A DNA stretch of 64,000 bases from assembly GCA_017433415.1 (NCBI GenBank), contig JAFRHI010000023.1, forward strand, positions 80,520 through 144,519, given 5' to 3'. A program made the translations under genes and the position numbers. The notes beneath the pieces were generated by a model. That model made no database searches, was not told the origin of the DNA, and worked only from the letters and a program-made list of their open reading frames with translations. Shown here piece after piece: positions 1,866-47,850 of the stretch. Origin of the DNA: Bacilli bacterium (GTDB lineage Bacteria > Bacillota_I > Bacilli_A > RF39 > UBA660). Within the stretch, counting starts at the first letter, position 1, and every line of letters begins with the position of its first letter.

Positions 1866-1872
1866 TTTACAT

Positions 1873-1949: not shown

Positions 1950-1951
1950 TT

Positions 1952-2028: not shown

Positions 2029-2031
2029 TTT

Positions 2032-2107: not shown

Positions 2108-2150
2108 TTTTTATTGATAAACAATTATGTGTAGCTGAACAACATGACTT

Positions 2151-2227: not shown

Positions 2228-2232
2228 TAGAT

Positions 2233-17102: not shown

Positions 17103-17117
17103 TAAGGAGATGATTTT

Positions 17118-33532: not shown

Positions 33533-33560
33533 TAGGTAATTTTCTATATTGGGTGATTTT

Positions 33561-34148: not shown

Positions 34149-34369
34149 TATAATTTGTGTATCGACTGTGAAGAGGAGTAGTAATAAACTTAATTATTTT
34201 TAGAGAGATTGTGGTTGGTGGAAACAATTAATAATAGTTTATGAATTCGCCTGTGGAGTTCTTATTAATAGTAAGCGTATTTCTTGCGTTAAAAGATTTG
34301 AGTGTATAGTAAAGCTATGAAATAAGGTGGTACCGCGAGTAATTCGTCCTTATGAATAGCTTTTTTTTT
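34146..34369 (+). promoter_or_regulatory. Promoter plus Phe-specific T-box leader with terminator
   Basis: Extended -10 TGATATAAT (34146-34154). K-turn-like TGTGAAGA. AG bulge TAGAGAG (34201-34207). Distal loop GGTTGGTGGAAAC (34212-34224). Specifier region GAA-TTC-G (TTC at 34246-34248). T-box AATAAGGTGGTACCGCG (34321-34337) with a UGGU bulge matching A73 of tRNA-Phe. T9 at 34361-34369. Confidence 0.85.
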
Positions 34370-34378
34370 GGGGGATTT

Positions 34379-35017
34379 ATGGAAAAGAAAAAATTAATTT
34401 TAGATTTAGATAGGACAATTATTACGTCAGGAGATTATAAGTTACAAAATGAGTTTTTTAGAAATCTATATGGAGAAAGTGAACAAGTGAATAGATTTAT
34501 TCAAAATATTGGGCATTATTTAGATCATTATGAGTATATGTTTAAAAATTATACTATTGAAGATTTATCACACTATTTAACAACAGTAACCGGTCTTACA
34601 GTTACTAAGAAAATTATTTCTGATTGGTTAGATTTACGATGGTATGAAACAGATTATTTAGAACCAGGTATTATAGAATTATTAGAATACGCTAAAAGTA
34701 AAGATATAAGGATAGTAGTTTTAACTAATTGGTTTTTAAAATGTCAAAAAGATCGCTTAGCTCATAAAGATCTTTTAAAGTATTTTGATGATGTTATTGG
34801 TGGAGAGATGTGTTTGAAGCCACATAGAGAAGCCTACGATATGGCTTGTGGTAATTTTAGTAGGGCTGATTGTTTAGTTGTCGGAGATAATTTATATAAA
34901 GATTATTTAGGACCATTAATTGCTGGATACGATGCAGTTTTATATGATCAACATGATCAAGAAAAGGGCTATGTTGTCAAAGTAAAAAAAATAGATGAAA
35001 TAAAGAATATGTTATAG
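34379..35017 (+). CDS. HAD-superfamily hydrolase
   Basis: Motif I 'LDLDRTI', motif II 'VVLTN', motif IV 'VGDNLYKD'. The track's start at 34352 lies inside the T-box terminator. The ATG at 34379 follows GGGGGA. Confidence 0.7.
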   Translation: MEKKKLILDLDRTIITSGDYKLQNEFFRNLYGESEQVNRFIQNIGHYLDHYEYMFKNYTIEDLSHYLTTVTGLTVTKKIISDWLDLRWYETDYLEPGIIELLEYAKSKDIRIVVLTNWFLKCQKDRLAHKDLLKYFDDVIGGEMCLKPHREAYDMACGNFSRADCLVVGDNLYKDYLGPLIAGYDAVLYDQHDQEKGYVVKVKKIDEIKNML

Positions 35018-35025: not shown

Positions 35026-36075
35026 ATGGAGAATAAGAAAGTTTTAGAAGTAAAAAAAGAATTAGAAAAAGATTTGGTAGAAATTGATGATTTAAAAGTT
35101 GTTAATGATTTGAAAGTTAAATATTTAGGAAAAAAAGGATTAATAACAGAATTAAATAGTGAGATTAAGAATGTTCCAAATGAGGAGAAAAAAGAATTTG
35201 GAATGCAAGTAAATGAACTTCGCAATACTTTTAATGATTATTATGAGAAAATGGTAGAAAAGTTAGAAAAGGCTGAACTTGATAAGAAGTTAGCAAATGA
35301 GGCAATAGATGTTACATTACCGGCTACTAAGTTAGCAGTAGGAGCACCTCATATTTTAGAGAAAGTTATTGAAGAGGTAGAAGAAGTATTTATGTCTATG
35401 GGTTTTGATGTTATTGATGGACCAGAAATAGAAGAGGATAAATATAACTTTGAGATGTTAAATATTCCTAAGGGGCATCCGGCAAGAGATGCTCAAGATA
35501 CTTTCTATGTTGAAGGTGAAGAAATGCTTCTTCGTAGTCAAACTTCTCCTGTCCAAGTTAGAACTATGCTAAAGGGAGAAGGAAAAACTCCAATTAGAAT
35601 GATTTGTCCAGGTAAGACTTATCGTAGAGATGATGATGATGCGTCTCATTCACATCAATTTATGCAGATTGAAGGATTACTTGTTGATAAGGATATTTCA
35701 TTATCAGATTTAAAAGGAACAATGGATGTTTTATTTAAAAGATTATTTGGCAAGAGTAGTGAAACACGTTTTAGACCAAGTTATTATCAGTTTACTGAAC
35801 CATCAGTAGAAGTTGATATTACTTGTGTTAATTGTCATGGTAAAGGTTGTAATGTTTGTAAACACACAGGTTGGGTTACCGTTTGTGGAGCAGGGGTAGT
35901 TCATCCTAATGTTTTAAGAATGAGCGGTTATGATCCAGATGTTTGGAGTGGTTTTGCTTTTGGCTTTGGGGCTGAGCGACTTGCCATGATGAAATATGAT
36001 ATTAATGATATTAGAACTTTCTATAATACAGATCTTCGTGAGGCGAAGATATTTGATAGGGAGGATGAAGAATAA
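35026..36075 (+). CDS. pheS: Phenylalanine--tRNA ligase alpha subunit
   Basis: 'HPARDAQDTFY', 'LLRSQTSPVQVR', 'FRPSYYQFTEPSVEVD' and 'GFGAERLAMM'. Confidence 0.93.
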   Translation: MENKKVLEVKKELEKDLVEIDDLKVVNDLKVKYLGKKGLITELNSEIKNVPNEEKKEFGMQVNELRNTFNDYYEKMVEKLEKAELDKKLANEAIDVTLPATKLAVGAPHILEKVIEEVEEVFMSMGFDVIDGPEIEEDKYNFEMLNIPKGHPARDAQDTFYVEGEEMLLRSQTSPVQVRTMLKGEGKTPIRMICPGKTYRRDDDDASHSHQFMQIEGLLVDKDISLSDLKGTMDVLFKRLFGKSSETRFRPSYYQFTEPSVEVDITCVNCHGKGCNVCKHTGWVTVCGAGVVHPNVLRMSGYDPDVWSGFAFGFGAERLAMMKYDINDIRTFYNTDLREAKIFDREDEE

Positions 36076-38444
36076 TGATTAGTTTAAATTGGGTAAAAGA
36101 TTATATTGATATAGCTGATCAAGATGTTCATGAGTTAGCAACAAAAATTACTAAGGCAGGTATTAATGTTGAAGCTGTTGTTTCACATGAAATACCAGGT
36201 TTAATTATTGGCCAAATTAAAAAAATAGAAAATCATCCAGATAGTGAAACATTACATGTTTGTCAAGTTGATATTGGAAAAGAAAATTTACAAATAGTAT
36301 GTGGTGCGCAAAATATCTATGAAGGTATGAAGGTTGTAGTTGCTCAAGAAGGAACTGTTTTACCAGGAAATGTGGAAATAAAGAAAAGTAAACTTCGTGG
36401 AGTTGATTCTTGTGGAATGATGTGTGCTTTATGGGAATTAGAGTTAGAAGAAAAACCAGAAGATATTTATGCATCAGGTATACATGACTTGGATAAAAAT
36501 GCTCCTGTTGGTGGAGATCCACTTGTATATTTAGGACTTGATGATACTTTATATGACTTGGATATACATAAGCATCGTAATAATGACTGCTACTACCATA
36601 TTGGTTTTGCTTACGAAATTGCTTGTATTTTAAATAGAAAAGTAAAATTACCAGAACTTGATTTTAAAACAGTAAAGGATAAAATTAATGATAATTTTAA
36701 ATTAGAAGTTAAGACAGATAAATGTAGTTATTATTTAGCACGTGAAGTACGTAATGTAAAAGTAGGAGAGAGTCCAGACTTTATTAAACAAAGATTAGTT
36801 GCGGCTGGTATGCGTCCAATTAATAATGTTGTTGATATTTCTAATTATGTAATGTTAGAGTTTGGTCAACCACTACATTTCTTTGATAAAGATAAGTTAG
36901 GAGAAAAAATATTAGTTAGAGATGCTAAAGATGGGGAAAAAATAGTAACACTAGACGGAAATGAATGTGAACTTAATAGTAGTGATATAGTTATTACTGA
37001 TGGTAAAAATCCTGTTTGTATTGCGGGAATTAAAGGTGGAGCAAATACTGAAGTTGATGAAAATACTAAAAATATTTTGATTGAATCTGCTATCTTTGAT
37101 TCGGTAAGTATTAGAAATACATCAAAAAGACTTGAACTTCCTAGTGAAGCAGCAATTAGATATGGAAAAGGACTTAGTTATGAATATACAGAGATGGCTA
37201 ATAGAAGAGCTTGTCATTTACTTGAAAAATATGCTGGGGCAGAAGTATTAGATGGTTATGTTTTAGTAGATAATGAAGATTATAGCGAAAAGACTCTAAC
37301 ATTTAAACCAGAGGATGTTGATAAAATACTTGGTATTACTATTTCTGAAGAAGATATGAAAACTGAACTTGAAAGATTAGATTTTCCATATACAGTGAAA
37401 AATCACGAATTTAAGGTAACAATTCCAAGAAGAAGATTAGATATAGATGCTAATGTCAATGATATAGCAGAAGAGATTGGAAGATTATATGGCTATAATA
37501 ACTTAGCTTCATCTGTACCAAGTGTTCCTCTTAGACGTGGAGAATATATTGGTGATGTTAAATATCGTAAACTTGTTTCTAAACGTCTTAGAAGTTTAGG
37601 CCTAACAGAAGTTAAAACATATACATTAGTTAGTCCAGAAATGGCAAGTAAATTTAAATATGAGGAAAAAGAACAAGTAGTATTACCTAATCCAATGAGT
37701 GTTGATAAAAGTGTTGTTAGAACGACTTTAATTCCATCACTATTAAATATTTATGAATATAATAAAGCTCGTGGAGTTAAAGATATTTCAATCTATGAGA
37801 TTGCTAAAACATATGATAAAAAGTATGAAGAAGTATCTAAAGTATGTGGACTTATGAGTGGTGAGTATTTAACTAATAGTTGGAATGGTAATATGAAAAT
37901 TGACTTCTATGTAGTTAAAGGTGTAGTAGAAGATATACTTGAATATATGGGATATCATGATAGATATTCATTTAGACGTGATAATTGTAGTGATCTACAT
38001 CCTGGTGTACAAGCTAGTATTATTCTAGATGGCAAAAAAATAGGTATACTAGGAAAAGTTCATCCAAATATTAGTAAAAAAGATATTTATGTTTTTGAAC
38101 TTAATTTGAATAGTATCTTTGGACGTACTAATAAATTAAAATACAAAGAAGCATTTAAATATCCAAGTATTGAAAAAGATATGGCCTTTATTTTAGACAA
38201 GAATATTGATGTTTATGAAGTAATTAAAACTATTAAAAAAGGTGCTAATAAGATATTACAAGAAGTAGGAGTATTCGATGTCTATGAAGGTGAGAGAGTA
38301 GACCAAAATAAGAAGAGTGTAGCTTTTAATTTAGTATTTAATGGAATGGATAGAACACTTACTGATGAAGAAGTTATGAAAGTCTTTAATGGTTTAATTG
38401 ACAAAGTAGTGACAACTTATAAAGCAGAATTAAGAGATAAGTAA
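36075..38444 (+). CDS. pheT: Phenylalanine--tRNA ligase beta subunit
   Basis: 789 aa. It has an N-terminal tRNA-binding (EMAP-like) domain ('HPDSETLHVCQVDIG'), B3/B4 and B5 domains, and a FDX-ACB tail. The ATGA start overlaps the pheS stop. Confidence 0.93.
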   Translation: MISLNWVKDYIDIADQDVHELATKITKAGINVEAVVSHEIPGLIIGQIKKIENHPDSETLHVCQVDIGKENLQIVCGAQNIYEGMKVVVAQEGTVLPGNVEIKKSKLRGVDSCGMMCALWELELEEKPEDIYASGIHDLDKNAPVGGDPLVYLGLDDTLYDLDIHKHRNNDCYYHIGFAYEIACILNRKVKLPELDFKTVKDKINDNFKLEVKTDKCSYYLAREVRNVKVGESPDFIKQRLVAAGMRPINNVVDISNYVMLEFGQPLHFFDKDKLGEKILVRDAKDGEKIVTLDGNECELNSSDIVITDGKNPVCIAGIKGGANTEVDENTKNILIESAIFDSVSIRNTSKRLELPSEAAIRYGKGLSYEYTEMANRRACHLLEKYAGAEVLDGYVLVDNEDYSEKTLTFKPEDVDKILGITISEEDMKTELERLDFPYTVKNHEFKVTIPRRRLDIDANVNDIAEEIGRLYGYNNLASSVPSVPLRRGEYIGDVKYRKLVSKRLRSLGLTEVKTYTLVSPEMASKFKYEEKEQVVLPNPMSVDKSVVRTTLIPSLLNIYEYNKARGVKDISIYEIAKTYDKKYEEVSKVCGLMSGEYLTNSWNGNMKIDFYVVKGVVEDILEYMGYHDRYSFRRDNCSDLHPGVQASIILDGKKIGILGKVHPNISKKDIYVFELNLNSIFGRTNKLKYKEAFKYPSIEKDMAFILDKNIDVYEVIKTIKKGANKILQEVGVFDVYEGERVDQNKKSVAFNLVFNGMDRTLTDEEVMKVFNGLIDKVVTTYKAELRDK

Positions 38445-38499
38445 TTATCTCTTTTTTTTTACTTTTATTTTTTGTATAATTTGATTAGGATGTGATACT

Positions 38500-41400
38500 G
38501 TGGATACTAAGATGACATTAGAAGAATTTAGAAAAATAAAAAGTGAATTTCTTCAATTGTATCATGATGTTGAAGAATATTATAATGATGATTCTAGGGA
38601 TAGAACAAAAGATGATGAAGTAAGTGATAAGTTTTTAGAGGATGTTGAGTTATTACAACAAAAATTATTATCAAGAGATTTGAGTGATATTCCATTTGAA
38701 GAATGGGAAGGATTATACTTTATTTCTGATGGTAAATTGGATTTTTCTAAAACACATGCTAATATTGATTTTTCGTTATTGAGAGAAGTGGAGTTTGAAA
38801 CAATAGATTTAAGCGGTTGTAATGTACGTGGACTTCAAGCTTTAGATTATGAAATGGATACTTTTAGCCCAGAATTTATGAAAAAACATCCAGAAGCTTT
38901 TCCAGACGAATCGCTTCCTCTAGAAATAAAAGAAAAGTTTTTTGCTAATAAAATAACTTTTTCTGATTTATTTCAATATCCAACTTTAAAAAAATGTATT
39001 TCAGAGAAATCATTTAAATATGCAAATCCTGGGACAAAGTTCTTTGTTGATGCTATAGGATATGAAAATGCAATAAAATTTTTTGAAGAATATCCAGAAT
39101 TTGCTGTAACAATTACAGATAATGCAAATCATATTTATTGGAAATATTTAACTTTAGGAGATAATTCTTATGACTCTGTAAAACAAAGAATATTTAATAA
39201 TATTATTGATTCTATTAAGACGTATAGCACTATTTTGCCAGATCTTGATATTATTCCTGTAGAAATGATTGAAATGTTTCCTAATATATTTGTGCAAGAA
39301 GGGGAATTACCTGAAGATGTTATTAATAATTATTATGCCGGTAATTTATCAATAAGAGATTTTAGGATTTATAAAGATGTTTTGAAAAATAAAGATTTAG
39401 AATTTGCTACTAGGTCATATGAATCTTTTTCAATAAGACACATCAATAAACTTTTTGGTAGTATTTGGGATTATATTGATAAAGTTCCAATGGAATTAGA
39501 TTATATAGTTAATTCTTATTTAATTAGACATAAAACAGATGAAGAAACGATTAATAAAATTTCTGAGATGCAATTATCAGAAATTATTAGTGAGATGTTA
39601 TCTGAAATATTAAGTAGATCTGGATCTTTCGAATTTAAGGATTTAGATAGTTTAGATGTTTTTTCACAATATCTTCCTATTGAAAAAATGGGATTAAGTG
39701 AAAACGAAGTAGCATTTATTGAGAAAATTGGTCTTAAAAATCTTATTGATTTTAATCATAATCATGATGAAATACTGGATGTATTTGGTGATTATTCTGG
39801 TACGGAATTTTGGAGGGAACTAGCAGCTAATTTTGATGTTATTAATGATGATATTACTATTAATAACGAAGAGGAGTTATTAGATGTATTTAGACAAATA
39901 ATTCATAAAATGAGAGCTTCTTACTCTTTGAATGTTCAAAAATTATTTTCTGAAAATAGAAAAGACTTAGTTAAACTTTTTCCTGATGAATTTATTGATT
40001 ATGATTTATTATATGAAATATTAAGTGCTAGAGGATTTTCTGTTGAAAATATTGGAGAGTTTGCTAAAGTGTTGGATAAATCTATTAATGGTAATTTTAA
40101 TAATTTTGAAAGCATTTTAAACACTTACCCTTATTTAATACCTGTATTAGAAGATAAAACTATAATTTTTCCAAAAGGGATGGCACAGACTGAAGACCTT
40201 TATCAAAAAATAGGTAGTAGAAAATTTTTAGAAGTGTGTTCTAAATATGGATTGTGGTTTAGTACAGTTTTTGATAGTTTATCATCTGTTGATAGTCAGG
40301 AAAAATTAATTGAGCTAATAAAAAATGGTAATTATGAAGAACAGATTAATCAATATATTTATGAATTAATTAGTGCTGGTAAAAGATATAATATAATAAA
40401 TTTACCACAAAGTTTTAAAGATAAATATCCAGAATTGTTTATATCTCCTGATGCTCCAGAAGAATTACAAAACTTTTTTTATGATGGTTTAGATTCTATG
40501 AGGATTTTTCTAACTCCTGAAATTGTTCCATATTTAATGAATGTAGATTTAAGCAGAAGTATGAGATCAGAATATGTAACAGTAGTTAATGCTAATAACA
40601 ATGAAGGTAGTATGAGAATGAATCTTTATGAAGCACTTGGTAAGATTTTTTCTCAAGAAGAAATACTTGAATTATTATCTAAATATGGAATGTATATTGT
40701 ACCTATTGATTTTTGCCTCGATTTGGCAAAAAGCAAGGAAGAAGTGTATAATGCTTTAGTTGAATCTATATATTTAATGATAAAAGATGGATATGCAAAT
40801 TATAATGATACTACTTTACCTAAGGAGTTTATGGAAAGATATCCGAATTTGTTTTTAGATGAAAATGCTCCAGATGCATTAAAAAAAGCCTTTTATTGGA
40901 TTAATTATCATAAGCTTACTTTTGGATTGTTATCAGAAAATAAAGATGAGTGGTTATCTTTTCTAAAGGATAAAGATATAAAATCTGTTTTAGTTAGAGA
41001 TGCAAATGTAAAAGAAGAATGTGCAAAATACTTTTCTCTTTTTGGTGATGAAAAAGCTCTTAAATTAGCTATTGGAAATCAAAGAAGAGCAGAAACTGTA
41101 ACTGAAATGATTAATTCACATCAAGTTGATTTGATGAAAAGTTGGTATGATAAAACAGGTGGAAAGTTTATTCCAGATTTTGTAGTAATGCAAAATTTCA
41201 GATTAGAAGAAGCTGATAAGTTTTTAGCAGCTGGTTCTAATTGGAGTCGATTAATGCGAATAGAAAGCTTTGCAAAATCTGCAGAAGCTAGAGATGCAAT
41301 GCTAAAACTTGCATATTCATTTGGGGCTTTTGATCAAGACCAACGAGGATTTAAAAAGGTACAAGATTTATTAACTGATTTACCTAGAAAAATAAGTGCA

Positions 41401-43164
41401 GATTATTATCATATTATGGATAGTATATCAAATTTAGCAGTTGATGCTGAGGCTATTAAGGAAATAACTTCTAGTTTTCCAGCAGGATATCAAGAGTATG
41501 TGCAATTGAAAGATACACTTGTTAATGAAGGATTTAATCTTGACACAGATAAGGAAGTATTTGGACAAGTATATTGTAAAAATGAAGATGGTTCGTATTC
41601 TTTAGCTATAAATACCCAGGATTATCCTAAATCGACACAATTGATACGAGCTATTATGGAAATATATCCAGATTCTCCAATTATATCACCAATTAAAGCA
41701 CATCAATTATTTGGAGGATTTGAGTTAAAATATGATCCTGATTTTAGAGAGTTTTTACTTGCAAATGTAGATAAAATATTAGAAAATCCAGAATATACTA
41801 CTTATGTTTCAAGTGTTCAAAGACATTTTTCTGAAATTAAAGCAATAAATAGTAATAGATTGCTTACTTGGGATTTAGCAGTTAGTTATGTTCAAACCAA
41901 TAAATTTACATCTGTAAATACTGGGAATGAAAAGGTTGCTGAAATATCTGCTATTGCAGGATATAGTCAAGCTGATTTTGATACATTACAAAGAATATAT
42001 AACTATGGTAAACAAAGAGTTTTTAGTAGTATTCCTAGAATTGAAAATACTAGTGAAAAGAAAAGTGGCAATTATAGTTATGAAATATTAAGATTAGACG
42101 ATCCACTTGCTATGGCAATAGGTACTTTAACAGATTGTTGTCAAGAATTAAATAATTGTGCTGAAGTTTGTATGGAACATAGTATGGTTGATAAAAATGG
42201 ACGAGTTTTTGTAATTAAAGATGAAATGGGCAATATAGTTGCTCAAAGTTGGGTATGGAGAAATAAAGATGTATTATGTTTTGATAATATAGAAATACCA
42301 GATAAAGCATTTTCAAGGGTAGTTAGATTGTATCCAGACTTAGGTAGAAAAGGTTTTACTGATGATGTTTTTGAAATATATAAACAAGCAGCCCATGAAT
42401 TAATTGAAGAAGACGAAAAAGTTTATAGAGAACTTTTTGAAAGTGGTAAAATTACACAAGAACAGTATGATGGATTGAGACTTGGAAAAGTAACTGTTGG
42501 TTTAGGGTATAATGATATTGCGGTATCATTAAAACAGCATTCCAAAGTAGATACTGGGTATGTTTCTAGGCCTGTACCTTTTAGTGAACCAGTAAAATTA
42601 TCTAGAGGACTTTATACTAATGATTCTACTACGCAGTATGTTTTAGAGGAAAGAGAAGATAGAAAAGAATTTGATGGTGAAAGCATTAATGTACATAGTG
42701 ATCAGTATATTAAATATGATGATTCAACATTTACGGAAAAAGATTTACTTTCATTAGAAAAATTAGAACTTGTAACTAAAGAAGATCCAATGTTTTTAGA
42801 AACAGCAGTTCAAGATGATGTTAATAAAGAACATTTAGTTACAGCTTTAGCAAGAAACTATCGTTTAAATCCAGATACAACAAAAATTATAAAGCATCCT
42901 AATTTTGCCATAATATATGATGTTAATGATGATGTAGTAAAAATAGCAGATTTATTCTTTAATACTAAAGTTGATAATGAGAGTCAACAAATGGATATTG
43001 AGGATAAAGTATTAATACAGATAAAATTAGCTTTAGAACAGATTGCTAAAAACAAAAAAATTGATATTTCAGATTTGAATAGTAAGCAGAAAGCAATGTA
43101 TGAAAAAGCTATAAGTTTATCAGATGAATTAGATACAGAAAGGGGATTAAATAATGCAAGATAA
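38500..43164 (+). CDS. Giant (1554 aa) cytoplasmic protein of unknown function with a recurring 'P-E/N-x-F...AP-E/D-x-L...FY' motif and a C-terminal Cys/His cluster
   Basis: One uninterrupted 4.6-kb ORF in AT-rich DNA. It has its own -10 TGTATAAT (38473-38480). No TM or signal peptide. The start is GTG 38500 or ATG 38512. Confidence 0.75.
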   Translation: MDTKMTLEEFRKIKSEFLQLYHDVEEYYNDDSRDRTKDDEVSDKFLEDVELLQQKLLSRDLSDIPFEEWEGLYFISDGKLDFSKTHANIDFSLLREVEFETIDLSGCNVRGLQALDYEMDTFSPEFMKKHPEAFPDESLPLEIKEKFFANKITFSDLFQYPTLKKCISEKSFKYANPGTKFFVDAIGYENAIKFFEEYPEFAVTITDNANHIYWKYLTLGDNSYDSVKQRIFNNIIDSIKTYSTILPDLDIIPVEMIEMFPNIFVQEGELPEDVINNYYAGNLSIRDFRIYKDVLKNKDLEFATRSYESFSIRHINKLFGSIWDYIDKVPMELDYIVNSYLIRHKTDEETINKISEMQLSEIISEMLSEILSRSGSFEFKDLDSLDVFSQYLPIEKMGLSENEVAFIEKIGLKNLIDFNHNHDEILDVFGDYSGTEFWRELAANFDVINDDITINNEEELLDVFRQIIHKMRASYSLNVQKLFSENRKDLVKLFPDEFIDYDLLYEILSARGFSVENIGEFAKVLDKSINGNFNNFESILNTYPYLIPVLEDKTIIFPKGMAQTEDLYQKIGSRKFLEVCSKYGLWFSTVFDSLSSVDSQEKLIELIKNGNYEEQINQYIYELISAGKRYNIINLPQSFKDKYPELFISPDAPEELQNFFYDGLDSMRIFLTPEIVPYLMNVDLSRSMRSEYVTVVNANNNEGSMRMNLYEALGKIFSQEEILELLSKYGMYIVPIDFCLDLAKSKEEVYNALVESIYLMIKDGYANYNDTTLPKEFMERYPNLFLDENAPDALKKAFYWINYHKLTFGLLSENKDEWLSFLKDKDIKSVLVRDANVKEECAKYFSLFGDEKALKLAIGNQRRAETVTEMINSHQVDLMKSWYDKTGGKFIPDFVVMQNFRLEEADKFLAAGSNWSRLMRIESFAKSAEARDAMLKLAYSFGAFDQDQRGFKKVQDLLTDLPRKISADYYHIMDSISNLAVDAEAIKEITSSFPAGYQEYVQLKDTLVNEGFNLDTDKEVFGQVYCKNEDGSYSLAINTQDYPKSTQLIRAIMEIYPDSPIISPIKAHQLFGGFELKYDPDFREFLLANVDKILENPEYTTYVSSVQRHFSEIKAINSNRLLTWDLAVSYVQTNKFTSVNTGNEKVAEISAIAGYSQADFDTLQRIYNYGKQRVFSSIPRIENTSEKKSGNYSYEILRLDDPLAMAIGTLTDCCQELNNCAEVCMEHSMVDKNGRVFVIKDEMGNIVAQSWVWRNKDVLCFDNIEIPDKAFSRVVRLYPDLGRKGFTDDVFEIYKQAAHELIEEDEKVYRELFESGKITQEQYDGLRLGKVTVGLGYNDIAVSLKQHSKVDTGYVSRPVPFSEPVKLSRGLYTNDSTTQYVLEEREDRKEFDGESINVHSDQYIKYDDSTFTEKDLLSLEKLELVTKEDPMFLETAVQDDVNKEHLVTALARNYRLNPDTTKIIKHPNFAIIYDVNDDVVKIADLFFNTKVDNESQQMDIEDKVLIQIKLALEQIAKNKKIDISDLNSKQKAMYEKAISLSDELDTERGLNNAR

Positions 43165-44161
43165 TATTAATCAAATTATTTCAAATGCTTTATATGTTGA
43201 AAAAGATAACTTAGCTAAAAACGTAAAAGATATTGTTAAACAAATTTATAAAGTACTTGTTGATAATAAAGATGTTATAGAAGATACAAATAAAATTGAT
43301 AAAAAAAATGATAATGGTTTTATAATTGATTTTAATATTATTGAGAATATAATTTCTAATATAGAAAAAGAAAAAGTTTTCTATGGAGATGTTACCCTTT
43401 CAGAAAAAGATGATATTAAAAAAATTATCTATGGTAAGCAAATAATGGATTATGGTAATGTAGTTGTTATCAGTGATGGTAATCCTTATATTACTATTGA
43501 AATGATTATTAGAAATATAATGGCTGGTAATACTACAATATTATCTAATAGTGGTTATATGTATGGTACTAATCAATTACTAGTCCAATTAATACAATCT
43601 GTATTAGAACAATTTAATATTTCTAAATATTTAGTACAAATATATTTATCAGAAGAATTTGATGATATTTTAGCTAATTTTGCAAATATTGACTTAGTTG
43701 TTTGTGTAGGAGATCATGATTTACAGAGATTAGTATTAAATAAATCTAAAAATGAAACTATTGTTAGTGGATATGAAAATTTTGATTTATACATAGAAGA
43801 TTTAAAATATATTGATTTTTTAAATAAAATTTTAGACTTAGGTGTTAATATTCAACTTTATTTAAATAGTAATTTAGGTGTAGATGTTGATGAAGCAATT
43901 ATTGTTGATTCTATAGATGAGGCAGTGGCTCAGATAAACTATAATGGTAATCGTTATAGTAGTGCAATATTTACAAATTCGAGTGAAAATGCTTCAAAGT
44001 TTATTAGAGAAGTTAAGTCAAAACAAGTTACTGTTAATACAAGTCCTACTATTGAAAGAATATTTGATATAAAACAAAGTTATTTAGTAGTTGAAAAAAC
44101 AATTATTTATCCACTAGAATTAAAATTTGATGGAGAAGGAACTAAAATAGATTTAAATTAA
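43154..44161 (+). CDS. Degenerate gamma-glutamyl phosphate reductase (ProA)/ALDH-fold-like protein
   Basis: Colinear with ProA segments: 'GNVVVISDGNPYITIEMIIRNIMAGNTTIL' matches the 'GVVGMIYEARPNVTVDA...KTGNAVVL' region, and 'YSSAIFTNSSENASKFIREVKSKQVTVNTSPT' matches 'HSEAILTE...F...VDAAAVYHNASTRF'. It is about 80 aa shorter than ProA, and the catalytic-Cys segment is not recognisable. Its ATG overlaps the giant ORF's last codons (SD AGGGGA). Confidence 0.55.
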   Translation: MQDNINQIISNALYVEKDNLAKNVKDIVKQIYKVLVDNKDVIEDTNKIDKKNDNGFIIDFNIIENIISNIEKEKVFYGDVTLSEKDDIKKIIYGKQIMDYGNVVVISDGNPYITIEMIIRNIMAGNTTILSNSGYMYGTNQLLVQLIQSVLEQFNISKYLVQIYLSEEFDDILANFANIDLVVCVGDHDLQRLVLNKSKNETIVSGYENFDLYIEDLKYIDFLNKILDLGVNIQLYLNSNLGVDVDEAIIVDSIDEAVAQINYNGNRYSSAIFTNSSENASKFIREVKSKQVTVNTSPTIERIFDIKQSYLVVEKTIIYPLELKFDGEGTKIDLN

Positions 44162-44176
44162 AAGAACTTATAAAAA

Positions 44177-44533
44177 TTAAGTTCTTTTTGTTATACCAAA
44201 CATACTACCTAGAGTAGATGTTGCGATTATAATTAAATAATAAATTATATTTTTTAATTCGAATTTAGAAAATATTAAAGTTAATACTAGTAGTAATATA
44301 GTTATTAATAGACCAAATCTTAATCCTGTTAGATATCTTTTTTTCTTAGATTCTCTACCTAATAAGAGACTATTTATTAAAATAGGGAAAATTACTATTA
44401 ATAGTTTAAAGAAATTATAAGTATTAATGTTTATAAGATCAAAATAAAAAGGAATGGTTATTAAAAATAATAATATTAATATTGATAAAGTAGTAAATAA
44501 TAAGTATTTAAGATATTTTTTTATAGTAGTCAC
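44177..44533 (-). CDS. Hypothetical small membrane protein (4 TM)
   Basis: 118 aa, highly hydrophobic. It is convergent with the upstream operon and shares the hairpin AAGAACTTA-TAAAAA-TTAAGTTCTT at 44162-44188. Confidence 0.5.
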   Translation of the reverse strand: MTTIKKYLKYLLFTTLSILILLFLITIPFYFDLININTYNFFKLLIVIFPILINSLLLGRESKKKRYLTGLRFGLLITILLLVLTLIFSKFELKNIIYYLIIIATSTLGSMFGITKRT

Positions 44534-44599
44534 CTCTAATTAAAAATATGTAATGTATAAATATTTATGACATTAATCATTATATTATTAGGTGATATT

Positions 44600-45244
44600 A
44601 TGAAATACTTAATAGTTTTATTTAGAAGTGTTTTCTTTTATTTTTTAATTACTATTTTATATAGATTAATGGGTAAAAGAGAAATAGGTGAATTATCAAT
44701 AATGGATTTTATTGTATCTATTTTTATTGCGGAAATGGTGGCTATATCAATAGAGAATTATAAATCTAGTATGTTAATGTCTGTTATACCAGTAATTTCT
44801 TTAACTGCTTTACAAATTGGTTTTTCGTATTTATCAGTTAAAAGTAGTAAAATAAGAAAAATAGTAGATGGAGAACCATCAGTTATTATAAATAGAGGTA
44901 AGGTTAATTTTAAAGAAATGTTAAAGCAAAGATATAATTTAGATGATTTATTAATGCAACTTAGAAGTAATGAAGTTAAGTCTATTGAAGAAGTAGATTA
45001 TGCCATATTAGAAACAAGTGGTAAGTTGTCAATATTTAAGAAAAATGATGATGTTTTAAGAAATTATCCATTACCTTTAATACTAGATGGAGTATTAGAT
45101 GAAGAAACTTTACTTCAGATTCATAAATCTAGGACTTGGTTAGATAATGAATTAAGGAAAGAAAATGTATTAATTGAAAATATATTTTATGCTTTTTATA
45201 AAGATAATAAATTATATATAATTGAAAAAGATAAGATAAAATGA
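44600..45244 (+). CDS. DUF421 (YetF/YdfS-like) membrane protein
   Basis: 'YRLMGKREIGELSIMDFIVSIFIAE' plus a C-terminal YetF_N/DUF421 pattern ('IINRGKVNFKEMLKQRYNLDDLLMQLR...ILETSGKLSIF'). The ATG at 44600 follows AGGTGA. Confidence 0.75.
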   Translation: MKYLIVLFRSVFFYFLITILYRLMGKREIGELSIMDFIVSIFIAEMVAISIENYKSSMLMSVIPVISLTALQIGFSYLSVKSSKIRKIVDGEPSVIINRGKVNFKEMLKQRYNLDDLLMQLRSNEVKSIEEVDYAILETSGKLSIFKKNDDVLRNYPLPLILDGVLDEETLLQIHKSRTWLDNELRKENVLIENIFYAFYKDNKLYIIEKDKIK

Positions 45245-45290
45245 CATTTTTTTCATTAAATTAACTATATGATTATAATAGGTGATTTAG

Positions 45291-46445
45291 ATGAAAAAAA
45301 TATTAGTAGTAGTTATTATTATAATAATTTTATTGATTAGTAGTATAAAACCAAAATCTTTAGAAAAGAATGAAGAAACTAGAGCAGTATTTATTAGTTA
45401 TATAGAACTTAATGAATATGTAAAAGCTAATAGTATAGAGGAAAGTAAAAAAAATATTGATAAGATGATTTCTAATATAAAGAAAACAAAGTTTAATACT
45501 ATTATTTTACAAGTAAGATCTTGTAGTGATGCGATATATAATTCTAAATTGTTTCCTTATAGTATGTATGTATCAGGTACTGAGGGAAAATACTTTTATG
45601 ATGTTTTAGATTATTTTATTATGAAATGTCATGAAAAAGATATGAAGTTATATGCTTGGATTAATCCTTATCGAGTTAGAACTAGTGAGGATGTTTCTAC
45701 TATAGCTAAAGATAATCCGGCTTATAAGTATTTAGAGACGGATACTATTTATATTAATAAAGGAATCTATTTTAATCCGGCAAAAAAAGAAGTGGAGAAA
45801 TTAATAGTAGATGGGGTAAAAGAAGTCATTAAATATGATGTAGATGGTGTTCTTTTTGATGATTATTTTTATCCTAGTGATGATATAGATGAAAAAGATT
45901 ATTTAGAATACTTGAAAAGTAATAAATATATTACAAAAGAAGAATATCATTTAAATAATGTTAATGAGATGGTTAAGAAGGTATATAGTGTTTGTCATAA
46001 GAAAAAAATAAAATTTGGAATATCTCCAGAGGGAAATATAGAAAATAATTATAATAAGAATTATGCAGATGTAAAGAGATGGATGAAGAGTGATGGCTAT
46101 ATAGATTTTATAATGCCACAAGTATATTATGGTTTTTATAATAGTACTAAGGATTTTGCGAAAGTAATAAAAGAGTGGGAGAGTTTAGTTACGAATGATA
46201 ATATTGAATTACTGATAGCTTTAGCTTTTTATAAAGTAGGAAGAGAAGATAAATATGCTAAAGAAGGTAGAGATGAATGGATGCTAAGTAATAATATTAT
46301 TATGCGAGAGATAATTTTATCAAGAAATTTAAATCACTATAGAGGATTTGCTTTATTTAGATATGATAATTTGTTTGATATTAATAGTTTTACACCTAAT
46401 AGTATTAATGAAATAGAAAATATGAAAAAAATATTAAATTATTAA
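45291..46445 (+). CDS. Glycoside-hydrolase-like GHL10 (DUF187, YngK-like) protein with signal/anchor
   Basis: 'RAVFISY', 'FNTIILQVR...DAIYNS', 'YAWINPYRV' and 'DGVLFDDYFYP' are typical of the family. Confidence 0.65.
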   Translation: MKKILVVVIIIIILLISSIKPKSLEKNEETRAVFISYIELNEYVKANSIEESKKNIDKMISNIKKTKFNTIILQVRSCSDAIYNSKLFPYSMYVSGTEGKYFYDVLDYFIMKCHEKDMKLYAWINPYRVRTSEDVSTIAKDNPAYKYLETDTIYINKGIYFNPAKKEVEKLIVDGVKEVIKYDVDGVLFDDYFYPSDDIDEKDYLEYLKSNKYITKEEYHLNNVNEMVKKVYSVCHKKKIKFGISPEGNIENNYNKNYADVKRWMKSDGYIDFIMPQVYYGFYNSTKDFAKVIKEWESLVTNDNIELLIALAFYKVGREDKYAKEGRDEWMLSNNIIMREIILSRNLNHYRGFALFRYDNLFDINSFTPNSINEIENMKKILNY

Positions 46446-46480: not shown

Positions 46481-47008
46481 ATGAATAGTAAAGGATTTAC
46501 ATTAATTGAATTGTTAGCAATGATGGTTGTTTTAGGAATTTTAATGACAGTAGCTGTACCTAATATTACGGGTATACTAAATAATCAAAAAGCTAATTCT
46601 ATTGTAGAAGATGCTGTTAGAATGACAGATAAAGTAAAAACGATAGTGGCAACAGATGAAGGTATTGCTAATCCAGGAGTAAATGATTGTTTGATATTTA
46701 CTTTAGATTATTTAGATATGAGTAAAGAAATAGAAAAAGGACCTAATGGTGGCGATTATGACAGAAAACAATCATTTGTTGTAGTAACAAGAATAGCTAA
46801 TCAATATAAATATTACGCAAGAATTATTGAAGAAGATCATGGTAAGTACTATGGAATTAATCTATCTAGTCTTGATGATATAAATAAGAATGGCAATAGT
46901 TTAGTTACTGATTTACCTAGTTCGGAATTTAACGCTATAAAATATAATAGTATTCCAAATACAATTGTTACTTGTAATAATAAAGATATTCGTGACTACA
47001 CTTATTAG
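46481..47008 (+). CDS. Type IV pilin / pseudopilin-like protein (prepilin-type N-terminal cleavage/methylation domain)
   Basis: 'MNSKG|FTLIELLAMMVVLGILMTVAVP' has the G-1/E+5 prepilin signature. It has its own -10 TGTTATAAT (46451-46459). Confidence 0.8.
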   Translation: MNSKGFTLIELLAMMVVLGILMTVAVPNITGILNNQKANSIVEDAVRMTDKVKTIVATDEGIANPGVNDCLIFTLDYLDMSKEIEKGPNGGDYDRKQSFVVVTRIANQYKYYARIIEEDHGKYYGINLSSLDDINKNGNSLVTDLPSSEFNAIKYNSIPNTIVTCNNKDIRDYTY

Positions 47009-47151
47009 TTGCAACAATAAAGTTATTTGTGGCAAATAAATTGTAAAGTGTAAAGTTGATGTACATTTAAAAAAAATATATTGTCTAAAAAAAAAGTCTA
47101 TGTTAAGATTAATTTGTAAGATAAAGAAAAGAAAGAGAGTGAAAGAAAGAA

Positions 47152-47685
47152 ATGAGAAAATTAAATTCTAAAGGTTTTACATTAATTGAATTACTTGCTG
47201 TTATTACTATTATGGGTATCTTGATGTTAGTTGCAATCCCAGCTGTATCTCGTACAATTGAAAACTCAAGACGTGATACATTTATGGACACTGCTAAATC
47301 ATATGTTAATGCAGTTAAAAATGCTGTAGCATCTGAATCTATTAAGTGCCTTGATAGTGCTGGCGTAAGTCAACCAATAGCCGCATTAGGTACTGGTACA
47401 TATTACTATTACTTTGAAAGTGGTGAAGATAGTGGTACAGATTTGTTGGAGCAAGGTGGAAAATCATCTTGGGGTAGTGCTAAAGTAACAGGATATGTAG
47501 AAATTTCAAAAACTGTTAATTCTGATTCTGCACAATACGATTATAAAATTTCTATGACTGATACAGGAAAGCATGGTATTAAAGATTTAACACCAGAGAA
47601 TGATTTGAATAGAACTTCTGTTTTGACTTCTGGTGCTGATGCTCCTGAAGCGTCAGCAGGTAATGCGTGTTCTTTAGTATATTAG
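47152..47685 (+). CDS. Type IV pilin-like protein, paralogue A
   Basis: 'MRKLNSKG|FTLIELLAVITIMGILMLVAIPAVSR'. It shares the 'EQGGKSSWG' block with the next gene. Confidence 0.8.
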   Translation: MRKLNSKGFTLIELLAVITIMGILMLVAIPAVSRTIENSRRDTFMDTAKSYVNAVKNAVASESIKCLDSAGVSQPIAALGTGTYYYYFESGEDSGTDLLEQGGKSSWGSAKVTGYVEISKTVNSDSAQYDYKISMTDTGKHGIKDLTPENDLNRTSVLTSGADAPEASAGNACSLVY

Positions 47686-47716
47686 TTTGATTTGAGACAT
47701 AATTTTTAATAATTTT

Positions 47717-47741
47717 AAGACTTCGACTTGAAGTCTTTTTT
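47717..47741 (+). terminator. Rho-independent terminator after pilin paralogue A
   Basis: AAGACTTC-GACTT-GAAGTCTT followed by TTTT. Confidence 0.75.
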
Positions 47742-47850
47742 AGCAACTTATAATTAGTAAAGTTAATGTTAAACTGTGAAAAATGTTGTTTTAGATTAGA
47801 AGTTGTGTTAATATTGTTATGTAATTTATATTAAAGTAGGTGTTAAGTGA

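What the first reader, a model, noticed from the sequence alone, without database searches (positions are those of the whole stretch)
38500..43164. 1554-aa cytoplasmic protein of unknown function with a five-fold recurring motif and a C-terminal Cys/His cluster
This is a single 4.6-kb ORF with its own promoter (-10 TGTATAAT, 38473-38480). It has no TM segment, no signal peptide and no enzymatic motif that I can name. One sequence element recurs at least five times:
- 'KKHPEAFPDESLPLEIKEKFFANKITFSDL'
- 'EMFPNIFVQEGELPEDVINNYYAGNLSIRDF'
- 'KLFPDEFIDYDLLYEIL'
- 'DKYPELFISPDAPEELQNFFYDGLDSMRIF'
- 'ERYPNLFLDENAPDALKKAFYWINYHKLTF'

The consensus is roughly (K/R)-(Y/H)-P-(E/N)-x-F-(3-5 residues)-(L/A)-P-(E/D)-x-(L/V/I)-x-x-x-(F/Y)-(F/Y). 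This suggests a repeated helical module.

Near residue 1210 lies a compact cluster, 'GTLTDCCQELNNCAEVCMEHSMVDKNGRVFVIKDEMGNIVAQSWVWRNKDVLCFDNIE' (42131-42300). It has four Cys and a His within 16 residues, a possible metal site, followed by a beta-rich segment. I have a vague, unverified impression that it resembles PcfJ-like domains. Codon and base composition look native. A giant orphan protein wedged between pheST and a membrane-protein block is a good candidate for an undescribed function.
Basis: partly seen in the sequence, partly recalled or inferred. Interest (0 to 1): 0.62.

Follow-up and report, generated by a model that had tools for sequence, protein, structure and literature searches.

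The report
Giant scaffold protein with GNAT-like head
This is a real, conserved and apparently expressed 1554-residue protein of uncultured gut Bacilli whose C-terminal part folds like an acyl-transferase (GNAT) domain with an unusual invariant Cys-Cys-Gln motif, always paired with a catalytically dead ProA-like gene; its family has no name or known function, so it is a good but still unproven candidate for a new protein- or RNA-modifying enzyme.

Summary
The ORF (38500-43164, +) is real, intact, under purifying selection and probably transcribed. It is not an orphan. It belongs to an unnamed family of 1200-1900-aa proteins in RF39-type gut Bacilli (37 species-level genomes, over 100 protein clusters). 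No Pfam, NCBIfam, PHROG, PADLOC or PDB sequence match exists.

Four of the five claimed repeats are statistically solid; the third is not. AlphaFold2 models are confident (pLDDT 91-93). They show a helical hairpin, a short beta-solenoid, a long all-alpha repeat scaffold with no structural relative, and a C-terminal alpha/beta domain (residues 1182-1384). All 50 top PDB matches of the C-terminal model are GNAT-fold acyltransferases, each individually weak.

The Cys/His cluster is not a conserved four-Cys site. C1213, C1214, Q1215, H1227 and C1260 are 96-100% conserved, C1224 is 62% and C1220 is 12%. The core domain spans at least 2855 clusters and also occurs in cyanophage and jumbo-phage proteins.

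PcfJ membership fails (Pfam no hit; hhalign below 1%). The only conserved neighbour is the overlapping ProA-like gene, which lacks ProA's catalytic Cys region. A sister family keeps the N-terminal scaffold but carries a nucleotidyltransferase-like head.

Best reading: a scaffolded group-transfer enzyme. The function remains untested.

The parts
38500..43164 (+). Giant ORF, 1554 aa, GTG start, acidic (270 D+E versus 176 K+R), no TM segment or signal peptide
38473..38480 (+). It is present but not distinguishable from chance in this AT-rich DNA, and there is no terminator between pheT and the ORF
38518..38670 (+). N-terminal helical hairpin (residues 7-57)
   Evidence: AF2 model
38671..38844 (+). 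Short beta-solenoid-like segment (residues 58-115) with the family's most widely conserved motifs: DLSDIPF..W.G, DFSKT.ANIDF, GCNV. It is also shared with the NTase-type sister family
38857..39024 (+). Repeat 1 (residues 120-175), 53.8 bits
39247..39426 (+). Repeat 2 (residues 250-309), 48.5 bits
39973..40023 (+).
40399..40578 (+). Repeat 3 (residues 634-693), 58.9 bits
40813..41001 (+). Repeat 4 (residues 772-834), 64.8 bits
41047..42039 (+). Conserved helical middle region (residues 850-1180). Its last part (from about residue 1084) is co-conserved with the core in cyanophage MaMV-DC ORF68L
42043..42651 (+). GNAT-fold-like alpha/beta core (residues 1182-1384): strands, alpha1, alpha2, beta2-beta4, alpha3, a helical insertion, beta5, alpha4, beta6
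42130..42144 (+). T-D-C-C-Q motif (residues 1211-1215) in the alpha1-alpha2 loop. C1214 is 100%, C1213 is 98% and Q1215 is 96% conserved
42244..42264 (+). Q-S-W-V-W-R-N (residues 1249-1255) on beta3, 97-100% conserved
42277..42294 (+). C-F-D-N-I-E (residues 1260-1265) on beta4. D1262 and E1265 are 100% conserved and are candidate catalytic acid/base residues
42697..43161 (+). C-terminal alpha/beta tail (residues 1400-1554). It includes a five-stranded sheet plus helix and has no sequence relation to the core
43154..44161 (+). Partner gene: a 335-aa divergent ProA homologue without the catalytic Cys region. Its start overlaps the giant ORF's end by 11 nt, and an AAGGGGA RBS lies at 43140-43146

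Best explanation
The gene encodes a cytoplasmic, acidic, multi-domain protein. About 1150 N-terminal residues form a helical hairpin, a short beta-solenoid and a long alpha-helical scaffold built around four copies of a roughly 60-residue repeat. The scaffold carries a C-terminal catalytic head with a GNAT-like (acyl-CoA N-acyltransferase-type) fold.

The head is predicted to be a group-transfer enzyme moving an acyl or aminoacyl group. Its active cleft would be lined by the invariant Cys1213-Cys1214-Gln1215 loop, the QSWxWRN strand and the CFDNxE strand, where Glu1265 or Asp1262 is a likely general base and Cys a possible acyl-carrying nucleophile. The scaffold would select a macromolecular target.

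The protein works as a two-gene module with a translationally coupled ProA-like pseudoenzyme, which would act as a ligand-binding or regulatory subunit.

Shown here: gene reality, family, repeats, fold prediction, conserved residues, partner linkage, and the sister family with a different head.

Inferred only: that the head is catalytically active, what it transfers, what it modifies, and what the partner does.
For: 1. The gene is real and constrained.
- It is intact in 35 of 37 related genome loci.
- An independent DNA run carries it with no differences.
- Metatranscriptome contigs tile it and cross the junction with the partner gene.
- Strain variants are 15 synonymous and 10 non-synonymous, against 19% synonymous expected (P = 8e-6).

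2. Fold.
- The AF2 model of residues 840-1554 has pLDDT 90.7.
- All 50 listed Foldseek PDB matches are GNAT-fold enzymes: NatD probability 0.97, RibT probability 0.99 with TM 0.61, plus YhbS, FemX, VipF, SpeG, Eis and Gcn5.
- GNATs also dominate the named viral hits.
- The DSSP element order fits the GNAT topology.

3. Invariant polar or nucleophilic residues sit on the loop and strands that form the substrate cleft in GNATs. They persist even in 189-aa stand-alone homologues: D1201, G1208, T1211, C1213, C1214, Q1215, Q1249, S1250, W1251, W1253, D1262, E1265, Y1372, D1375. This pattern is typical of an active site rather than a structural core.

4. A sister family keeps the N-terminal domain and repeats but replaces the head. 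The replacement carries the Pol-beta nucleotidyltransferase signature (G-S, 11 residues, D-x-D, then a third Asp) and gives weak NTP_transf_2 and SMODS hits in 4 of 4 sequences. Two alternative transferase heads on one scaffold argue that the head is an enzyme and the scaffold a targeting device.

5. The ProA-like gene follows in 34 of 38 loci, usually with an 8-11 nt overlap, and nothing else around the gene is conserved.
Against: - No sequence method links the head to any GNAT family.
- The Foldseek E-values are weak (0.025 or higher), because a 715-residue multi-domain query was used and could not be trimmed.
- The canonical GNAT pyrophosphate-binding motif (Q/R-x-x-G-x-G/A after beta4) is not conserved, so acyl-CoA use is doubtful.
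- The domain might be a non-catalytic binding module.
- The conserved Cys and His residues could equally form a metal site.
- No substrate, phenotype or interaction data exist.
- Evidence for transcription comes from assembled metatranscriptome contigs that may contain DNA.
Confidence: 0.4

Rival explanations
1. Metal-binding (Zn or Fe-S) domain. C1213, C1214, H1227 and C1260 would ligate a metal that stabilises or regulates the domain, and the domain would not be an acyl-transferase.
For: These four residues are 98-100% conserved in the giant family. Distant homologues keep CC plus a nearby His (CCQH) and a further Cys.
Against: H1227 is not conserved in distant homologues. Adjacent Cys-Cys pairs are unusual as joint ligands of one metal ion (general knowledge). 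The other invariant residues (Q1215, QSWxWRN, D1262, E1265, Y1372, D1375) are not explained by a metal site. A metal site and catalysis are not mutually exclusive.
Confidence: 0.2
2. Non-enzymatic scaffold or structural protein. The GNAT-like head would be a degenerate pseudoenzyme used only for binding, for example of the ProA-like partner or a small ligand, and the whole protein would organise some cellular structure.
For: The GNAT motif A is absent. The partner is itself a pseudoenzyme. The bulk of the protein is an alpha-solenoid-like scaffold with no structural relative. The acidic charge is conserved.
Against: Polar residues are extremely conserved (100% for C1214, W1251, W1253, D1262, E1265), even in 189-aa stand-alone and phage versions that lack the scaffold. 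The sister family shows a parallel swap to a head that retains the full NTase catalytic triad motif.
Confidence: 0.2
3. Polymorphic-toxin-like effector with a downstream immunity gene. A constant N-terminal region delivers alternative C-terminal toxic enzymatic heads (GNAT-like or NTase), and the overlapping ProA-like gene encodes the immunity protein.
For: The architecture is a constant N-terminus, then repeats, then alternative enzymatic C-termini. The downstream gene is tightly overlapped. Some genomes carry tandem paralogues.
Against: No secretion signal or known trafficking domain is present. The C-terminal head is the most conserved part rather than hypervariable. The gene is single-copy among housekeeping genes in most genomes. 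The NTase-type sister has no conserved downstream partner. There are no PADLOC hits. A 335-aa ALDH-fold immunity protein would be atypical.
Confidence: 0.1
4. PcfJ-like domain protein of mobile-element origin, as the first reader loosely suggested.
For: Three viral models annotated 'PcfJ-like protein' appear among the weak Foldseek hits (E 0.014, 0.034 and 0.48). Both domains have a helix carrying a Cys followed by three beta-strands.
Against: There is no PF14284 hit in the query, in 26 relatives, in the isolated domain or in distant homologues. hhalign probability is 0.1-0.3% against a 13-sequence PcfJ profile. The motifs differ (EGxxLxHCVxSY versus TDCCQ...QSWxWRN...CFDNxE). No plasmid homologue was found. 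The gene is chromosomal among housekeeping genes.
Confidence: 0.05

Closest known systems
GNAT-fold acyltransferases (for example NatD/Naa40 4u9v, RibT 5xxs, YhbS 4rs2, FemX 1ne9, VipF 6wqb)
   Same: The predicted topology of residues 1182-1384 matches. All 50 top PDB fold matches are of this kind. Conserved residues lie on the alpha1-alpha2 loop and on beta3-beta4, which form the cleft in GNATs.
   Different: No sequence or profile similarity was found. The acetyl-CoA pyrophosphate loop motif is not conserved. An invariant Cys-Cys-Gln is present. A 30-40-residue helical insertion lies between alpha3 and beta5. The domain is embedded in a 1554-aa scaffold.
Uncharacterised phage proteins with the same core domain: Microcystis phage MaMV-DC ORF68L (697 aa), 'Bacteriophage sp.' A0A7G9A3X2 (656 aa), and a PhiKZ-like jumbo-phage protein (P0147)
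   Same: They share the TxCCQ, AQSWxW and CFDNxE motifs (BLASTP 6e-14; alignment). A0A7G9A3X2 matches about 590 columns of the C-terminal model at Foldseek E 3.9e-12.
   Different: The phage proteins lack the N-terminal domain, the repeats and the ProA-like partner. They have CCQH and lack H1227. They are equally uncharacterised.
PcfJ-like domain (Pfam PF14284; pCF10 PcfJ)
   Same: It is an uncharacterised domain found in large proteins of phages and plasmids. It has a Cys-bearing helix followed by beta-strands, and it gives weak co-hits in the viral fold search.
   Different: It has a different signature and no profile similarity. PcfJ occurs on mobile elements, whereas this gene is chromosomal.
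Gamma-glutamyl phosphate reductase ProA (for the partner gene)
   Same: There is clear homology: NCBIfam proA E 2e-18, and PDB ProA chains down to E 2e-9.
   Different: It scores 66 bits against a cut-off of 289. About 70 residues are missing where ProA 234-304 would align, and from general knowledge this is the region holding the catalytic Cys. Family members have 0-3 Cys, none of them invariant. It is probably not a reductase.
Bacterial protein acetyltransferase Pat-type enzymes (a GNAT head attached to a large catalytically inactive regulatory domain). This analogy rests on my own knowledge, not on a tool result.
   Same: The logic is the same: a small transferase head joined to a large non-catalytic or pseudoenzyme part.
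   Different: No homology was detected. Here the pseudoenzyme is a separate ProA-like subunit, and the large part is a novel repeat scaffold.
Sister family with a nucleotidyltransferase-type head (P0084-P0100; L006:11510-15946)
   Same: It has the same N-terminal hairpin and solenoid domain and the same repeats. In one genome it lies directly after the ProA-like gene.
   Different: The C-terminal half has IDTGSTxRxTN...GDxD plus VDIDISF (a Pol-beta NTase signature) instead of the GNAT-like core. It has no ProA-like partner of its own.

Membership tests
GNAT (acyl-CoA N-acyltransferase) superfamily | Mixed alpha/beta fold with the order beta1-alpha1-alpha2-beta2-beta3-beta4-alpha3-beta5-alpha4-beta6 | tested here: met
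   AF2 DSSP order at model residues 343-545. All 50 top Foldseek PDB hits are GNAT-fold, with probability up to 0.99 and target TM up to 0.61, but E is 0.025 or higher. This rests on a predicted structure only.
GNAT (acyl-CoA N-acyltransferase) superfamily | Motif A: the Q/R-x-x-G-x-G/A pyrophosphate-binding loop between beta4 and alpha3 | tested here: not met
   After beta4 the family has IEIPxKAFxR..., with no conserved G-x-G. Only some distant members have a loose E-A-K-G-x-G.
GNAT (acyl-CoA N-acyltransferase) superfamily | Significant match to a curated acetyltransferase profile | tested here: not met
   No Acetyltransf_* hit for the full protein, for 26 relatives, for the isolated domain at E up to 10, or in a PDB profile search.
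GNAT (acyl-CoA N-acyltransferase) superfamily | Binds an acyl donor and transfers the acyl group | not testable with these tools
   Needs biochemistry.
PcfJ-like (PF14284) | Match to the Pfam model | tested here: not met
   no hit even at E up to 10 on the isolated domain.
PcfJ-like (PF14284) | Signature EGxxLxHCVxSY...G.t.IvFvR...TlE...vQxrGxxN, or profile similarity to it | tested here: not met
   hhalign of A4 and A5 against a 13-sequence PcfJ alignment gives probability 0.3% and 0.1%. Against pCF10 PcfJ alone it gives 0.2%.
PcfJ-like (PF14284) | Shared three-dimensional fold | tested here: inconclusive
   Three 'PcfJ-like' BFVD models hit at E 0.014-0.48 with probability 0.18-0.54. They are large multi-domain proteins, and the region aligned is unknown.
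ProA, gamma-glutamyl phosphate reductase (partner gene) | Score above the equivalog cut-off | tested here: not met
   66.2 bits against 289 (NF001221) and 61.4 against 317 (TIGR00407).
ProA, gamma-glutamyl phosphate reductase (partner gene) | Catalytic cysteine in the catalytic domain | tested here: not met
   ProA residues about 234-304 have no counterpart. The family has 0-3 Cys and none is invariant. The location of the ProA Cys is taken from general knowledge.
Pol-beta-type nucleotidyltransferases (sister family head) | hG[GS]-x9-13-Dh[DE]h plus a third acidic residue | tested here: met
   Invariant G1251-S1252, D1264-x-D1266 and D1323 in alignment A6.
Pol-beta-type nucleotidyltransferases (sister family head) | Curated profile match above threshold | tested here: not met
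   NTP_transf_2 scores 17.1 bits against 21; SMODS scores 14 bits against 26.5. The hits are consistent in 4 of 4 sequences but below threshold. No PDB sequence hit.
Polymorphic toxin / immunity systems | N-terminal secretion or trafficking domain or signal | tested here: not met
   No signal peptide or TM segment and no Pfam trafficking domain.
Polymorphic toxin / immunity systems | C-terminal toxin domain that varies between close relatives, with a cognate downstream immunity gene | tested here: inconclusive
   Two head types exist, but each is highly conserved. The downstream ProA-like gene is conserved only with the GNAT-type.
Pentapeptide-repeat proteins (N-terminal solenoid) | Match to the Pentapeptide profile, or regular five-residue periodicity | tested here: not met
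   No Pfam hit. The six short strands in the model are spaced 5-9 residues apart.

The most novel reading that the evidence does not exclude
The giant proteins of RF39-type gut Bacilli form a previously unrecognised class of scaffolded target-modifying enzymes with interchangeable heads. One head is a Cys-dependent GNAT-like domain that works with a ProA-derived pseudoenzyme subunit. The other is a nucleotidyltransferase. The GNAT-like 'CCQ' head is an unnamed enzyme family (at least 2855 clusters) that large phages (cyanophage, jumbo phage, gut phage) also deploy. If so, it would be a new covalent-modification chemistry acting on a conserved cellular target such as the translation apparatus.
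Probability: 0.25. Interest if true: 0.75.

Novelty: new variant of a known kind. Interest (0 to 1): 0.55.

Why it matters
RF39-type Bacilli are among the most prevalent uncultured gut bacteria and have strongly reduced genomes (PMC6784871). Keeping a 4.7-kb gene and its partner under purifying selection in such genomes implies an important function, yet nothing about the family is annotated.

The work turns 'giant hypothetical protein' into testable hypotheses:
- a defined catalytic-looking domain of about 200 residues with named candidate residues (C1213, C1214, Q1215, D1262, E1265);
- an obligate partner, the ProA-like pseudoenzyme;
- a natural head-swap control, the nucleotidyltransferase-type sister family;
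- small stand-alone and phage versions (189-700 aa) that are far easier to express than the giant.

It also defines an unnamed domain family that could be added to domain databases.

Tried and rejected
- Curated libraries on the full protein gave nothing significant: Pfam, NCBIfam, PHROGs, PADLOC and PDB sequences. Pfam on 26 relatives gave only stray weak OST-HTH and SHOCT hits.
- Pfam and PHROGs on the isolated core and on distant or phage homologues gave nothing.
- PDB profile searches with the core alignment and with the sister-family alignment gave nothing.
- A fold search of the N-terminal 850 residues returned only generic alpha-solenoids with probability 0.09 or less.
- PcfJ link: I built a 13-sequence PcfJ alignment from pCF10, plasmids and phages. 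hhalign was negative.
- The IMG/VR scan for the core motifs found no relative. The plasmid tblastn found none.
- The second and third large protein searches returned mostly fragments of the same family and no annotated relative.
- Internal duplication of the core in the C-terminal tail or the middle region was rejected (hhalign probability 1.1% or less).
- No DNA-level tandem repeats underlie the protein repeats.
- No paralogue lies in the window.
- Own-promoter claim: not distinguishable from chance.
- Literature searches for PcfJ function and for giant proteins in RF39 returned nothing useful. 'PcfJ' mostly matches C. elegans pCFJ plasmids.
- Anti-phage defence system reading: no PADLOC hit and no defence-island context.
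- Decaying mobile element reading: rejected by conservation, synteny with the partner and the excess of synonymous variants.

Full report
1. THE OBSERVATION

The window has a single open reading frame at 38500-43164 on the + strand, 1554 codons with a GTG start. The GTG is the likely true start for two reasons. Homologues begin with the same MxEKMTLExF, and an AGGA lies 9 nt upstream. The database copy was called from the ATG four codons later.

The protein has no hydrophobic stretch compatible with a membrane helix. The best 19-residue Kyte-Doolittle mean is 1.25, and the N-terminus is charged. It is strongly acidic (270 D+E against 176 K+R), and relatives share this property, averaging -4.6 net charge per 100 residues. 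GC content (26-28%) and GC skew match the rest of the window.

However, sigma-70-like matches in this AT-rich DNA are no commoner than in shuffled sequence (78 found against 81.7 +/- 6.8 expected), and no terminator separates pheT from the ORF. An independent promoter is therefore possible but not shown. A T-box leader (34159-34354) heads the upstream HAD-pheS-pheT block.

2. REPEATS

Profiles built from each claimed repeat across the family recognise one another for copies 1, 2, 4 and 5, at 14-54 bits against at most 8 bits in 500 shuffles. An iterated family-wide repeat HMM gives four clear copies in this protein:
- 120-175, 53.8 bits
- 250-309, 48.5 bits
- 634-693, 58.9 bits
- 772-834, 64.8 bits

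The shuffle maximum is 10.7 bits. Among 70 full-length relatives, 56 have five copies, 6 have six and 8 have four. The consensus is DTFPEEFIKEHPELFLSEDAPEELKEKFYNRKLTFEDLKLHPEWIPYLKDKNL. The repeats leave no trace as DNA tandem repeats, so they are old.

3. NOT AN ORPHAN

No curated library matches: Pfam, NCBIfam, PHROGs, PADLOC or PDB sequences. The large protein collection nevertheless holds at least 100 clusters of similar giants (937-1797 aa), all without Pfam domains or names.

Thirty-seven species-representative genomes encode one. The record titles read 'uncultured Bacilli', 'Tenericutes', 'Mycoplasmatota', Clostridium sp. CAG:710 and CAG:914, Mycoplasma sp. CAG:956, and Candidatus Faecimonas. 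I recognise this as the RF39-type assemblage of small-genome gut Bacilli. That placement is my own knowledge and was not tested. NCBI files Candidatus Faecimonas under Bacilli incertae sedis. RF39 is described as highly reduced and auxotrophic in PMC6784871.

The window sequence is found in gut, goat and bovine metagenomes. One DNA run carries the 36065-45500 stretch with no differences. A bovine metatranscriptome holds contigs of a 95-99% identical strain that tile the ORF, and one of them (42665-43232) crosses into the next gene. The caveat is that assembled metatranscriptomes can contain DNA.

Of 25 strain variants inside the ORF, 15 are synonymous, against 19% expected by chance (P = 8e-6). 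The gene is split in only two of the 37 loci (L001, L033). Four loci hold a second giant gene beside the first: L024, L028 and L034 a further GNAT-type copy, and L006 the NTase-type sister gene.

4. ARCHITECTURE

BLAST segments and conservation together with two confident AlphaFold2 models give the layout below. The models cover residues 1-850 (pLDDT 92.6, pTM 0.71) and residues 840-1554 (pLDDT 90.7, pTM 0.66).
- Residues 7-57: helical hairpin.
- Residues 58-115: short beta-solenoid-like segment carrying the most widely shared motifs (DLSDIPF..W.G, DFSKT.ANIDF, GCNV).
- Residues 116-849: all-alpha region containing the repeats.
- Residues 850-1180: conserved helical region.
- Residues 1182-1384: alpha/beta core.
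- Residues 1400-1554: alpha/beta tail.

The N-terminal 850 residues have no structural relative. The best Foldseek probability is 0.09, to generic HEAT or importin-like solenoids.

5. THE C-TERMINAL CORE

All 50 listed PDB matches of the C-terminal model are GNAT-fold acyltransferases. They include NatD, RibT, YhbS, RimI, SpeG, Gcn5, Eis, FemX and VipF. Probabilities reach 0.99 and target-normalised TM reaches 0.61, but E-values are only 0.025 or higher. The query was a 715-residue multi-domain model that I could not trim. The order of secondary-structure elements fits the GNAT topology. In the viral library, GNATs again dominate the named hits.

Across 77 family members the invariant residues cluster in three places:
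- G1208, C1213, C1214
- H1227, S1228
- Q1249-S-W-x-W-R-N1255 and F1261-D-N-x-E1265-x-P

Over 248 unique sequences the conservation is as follows:
- C1214, W1251, W1253, D1262, E1265: 100%
- C1213, H1227, C1260: 98-99%
- Q1215: 96%
- C1224: 62% (Ser in 29%)
- C1220: 12%

A profile of the core finds 2855 clusters in the 1.84-billion-protein representative set at E up to 1e-3, and 1167 at E up to 1e-10. The domain is therefore widespread yet unnamed.

Divergent stand-alone versions define a minimal domain of about 170 residues. Its invariant positions are D1201, G1208, T1211, C1213, C1214, Q1215, Q1249, S1250, W1251, W1253, D1262, E1265, a beta5 Gly, Y1372 and D1375. H1227 is not kept there. Those proteins have CCQH instead.

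The canonical GNAT pyrophosphate loop is not conserved. A catalytic Cys/Glu/Asp constellation, or a differently composed metal site (C1213, C1214, H1227, C1260), both remain possible.

6. PHAGE RELATIVES AND THE PCFJ QUESTION

The best structural match anywhere is an uncharacterised 656-aa protein of a 'Bacteriophage sp.' (A0A7G9A3X2): E 3.9e-12 over 589 columns. By sequence, Microcystis phage MaMV-DC ORF68L (697 aa, hypothetical) shares the core and part of the preceding helical region, with tblastn 6e-8 and BLASTP 6e-14. The 412-aa homologue P0147 lies on a contig with a PhiKZ-type major capsid gene. No plasmid homologue was found.

PF14284 is not hit by the query, by 26 relatives, by the isolated domain or by distant homologues, even at E up to 10. 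I then fetched pCF10 PcfJ and twelve diverse PcfJ domains from plasmids and phages and aligned them. Profile-profile comparison gives probability 0.1-0.3%. The signatures also differ: EGxxLxHCVxSY in PcfJ against TDCCQ...QSWxWRN...CFDNxE here. Membership in PcfJ is not supported. A very distant fold-level kinship cannot be excluded.

7. THE PARTNER GENE

Across the 37 loci plus the window, the only conserved neighbour is the 335-aa gene immediately downstream. It is present in 34 of 38, usually with an 8-nt overlap. In the window its ATG (43154) lies 11 nt inside the giant ORF's end, behind an AAGGGGA Shine-Dalgarno sequence. pheST is upstream only in the closest relative, L007.

The partner is a clear but degenerate ProA homologue, scoring 66 bits against NCBIfam proA where the cut-off is 289. 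PDB ProA chains align to its residues 100-218 and 232-298. About 70 ProA residues (roughly 234-304) have no counterpart. From general knowledge, that is where the catalytic cysteine sits. The family has 0-3 cysteines, none invariant, yet it conserves its own motifs: SGYENFDLYIED, INYNGSxYSSAIFT and NTSPTIER. I read it as a pseudoenzyme subunit.

8. THE SISTER FAMILY

Proteins P0084-P0100 (1345-1728 aa) share the N-terminal domain and the repeats but lack the GNAT-like core. Their C-terminal half has invariant IDTGSTxRxTN...GDxD and VDIDISF. That is the Pol-beta nucleotidyltransferase pattern: G-S, 11 residues, D-x-D, and a third Asp. Four of four sequences give sub-threshold NTP_transf_2 or SMODS hits over exactly that segment.

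These proteins have no ProA-like neighbour. In L006, however, one sits right after the ProA-like gene of the GNAT-type protein. One scaffold with two alternative transferase-type heads is the strongest indirect argument that the heads are enzymes and the scaffold a targeting or organising device.

9. MECHANISM

Best-supported reading (confidence about 0.4): a cytoplasmic, scaffolded group-transfer enzyme.
- The GNAT-like head binds an acyl or aminoacyl donor in the beta4-beta5 cleft.
- E1265 or D1262 acts as the base, and C1213 or C1214 acts as nucleophile or substrate ligand.
- The acidic repeat scaffold recruits a macromolecular, probably basic, target.
- The ProA-like pseudoenzyme is a regulatory or ligand-binding subunit made in step through translational coupling.

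Shown: the gene, the family, the repeats, the predicted fold, the conservation pattern, the partner linkage and the head swap. Inferred: activity, donor, acceptor and partner role.

Rivals:
- a metal-binding domain (0.2; not exclusive of catalysis);
- a non-catalytic scaffold with a pseudo-GNAT (0.2);
- a polymorphic-toxin-like effector with an immunity gene (0.1);
- a PcfJ-type mobile-element protein (0.05).

10. VERDICT

Three of its specifics need correction: the five-fold repeat, the four-Cys/His site and the orphan status. The PcfJ suggestion fails.

What is there is a new, unnamed family built on a known fold type, with an unusual motif, an unusual pseudoenzyme partner, phage relatives and a head-swapped sister. 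The function remains unknown but is now sharply testable. Interest 0.55. Novelty: new variant of a known kind.

Noticed in passing
window 34159-35017: A T-box leader (121.7 bits) lies directly in front of a HAD-like hydrolase ORF (34352-35017) that immediately precedes pheS and pheT. The T-box thus appears to govern a HAD-pheS-pheT block rather than pheS directly, and the leader's 3' end overlaps the HAD start codon.
   Followed up: partly
L006:11510-15946; proteins P0084-P0100 (alignment A6): A sister family of giants has the same N-terminal domain and repeats but a Pol-beta nucleotidyltransferase-like C-terminal head (IDTGSTxRxTN..GDxD, VDIDISF). It is unannotated and has further invariant blocks (for example TPLDTD, HYGIRTG, QGGLGGxGxENWxLQ) that I did not analyse.
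   Followed up: partly
window 52549-54204: A 551-aa ORF with a serpin domain (Pfam E 2.9e-44). Bacterial serpins are uncommon, and it has a long N-terminal extension of about 350 residues without a Pfam match.
   Followed up: no
window 29881-31998 and 33549-34148: A 705-aa ORF and a 199-aa ORF (TTG start, between frr and the T-box) have no Pfam hit; the 199-aa ORF also has no NCBIfam hit. The 199-aa ORF is conserved in the syntenic relative L007.
   Followed up: no
window 46481-48465: Three consecutive small ORFs carry the N-terminal methylation (type IV pilin-like) motif. They lie downstream of a GHL10 glycosyl-hydrolase-like gene and may be a pseudopilus or competence cluster.
   Followed up: no
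window 1221-2306: A cluster of 12 tRNA genes lies at the start of the window.
   Followed up: no
window 14019-18956: A 1027-aa VWA-domain protein is followed by a 612-aa protein with InlB B-repeat, SHIRT and DUF11 domains. These are surface or adhesin-type proteins.
   Followed up: no
L007, L014, L029, L030: MAG records labelled Muribaculaceae or Methanobrevibacter carry this Bacilli-type gene pair. L007 even has full synteny with the window (frr through pilins). These are probably binning or labelling errors in the public records.
   Followed up: no
L024, L028, L034: Some genomes carry two GNAT-type giant paralogues in tandem (for example 1662 aa plus 1551 aa). In L034 the order is giant, ProA-like, giant.
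   Followed up: partly
L039:15874-17984: On pCF10 the PcfJ gene overlaps a gene annotated as Cas9 inhibitor AcrIIA9 family. This places PcfJ in an anti-defence-type neighbourhood.
   Followed up: no
window 44177-44533 (- strand): A 118-aa TIGR04086-family membrane protein lies convergent to the ProA-like gene. It marks the end of the two-gene module.
   Followed up: no
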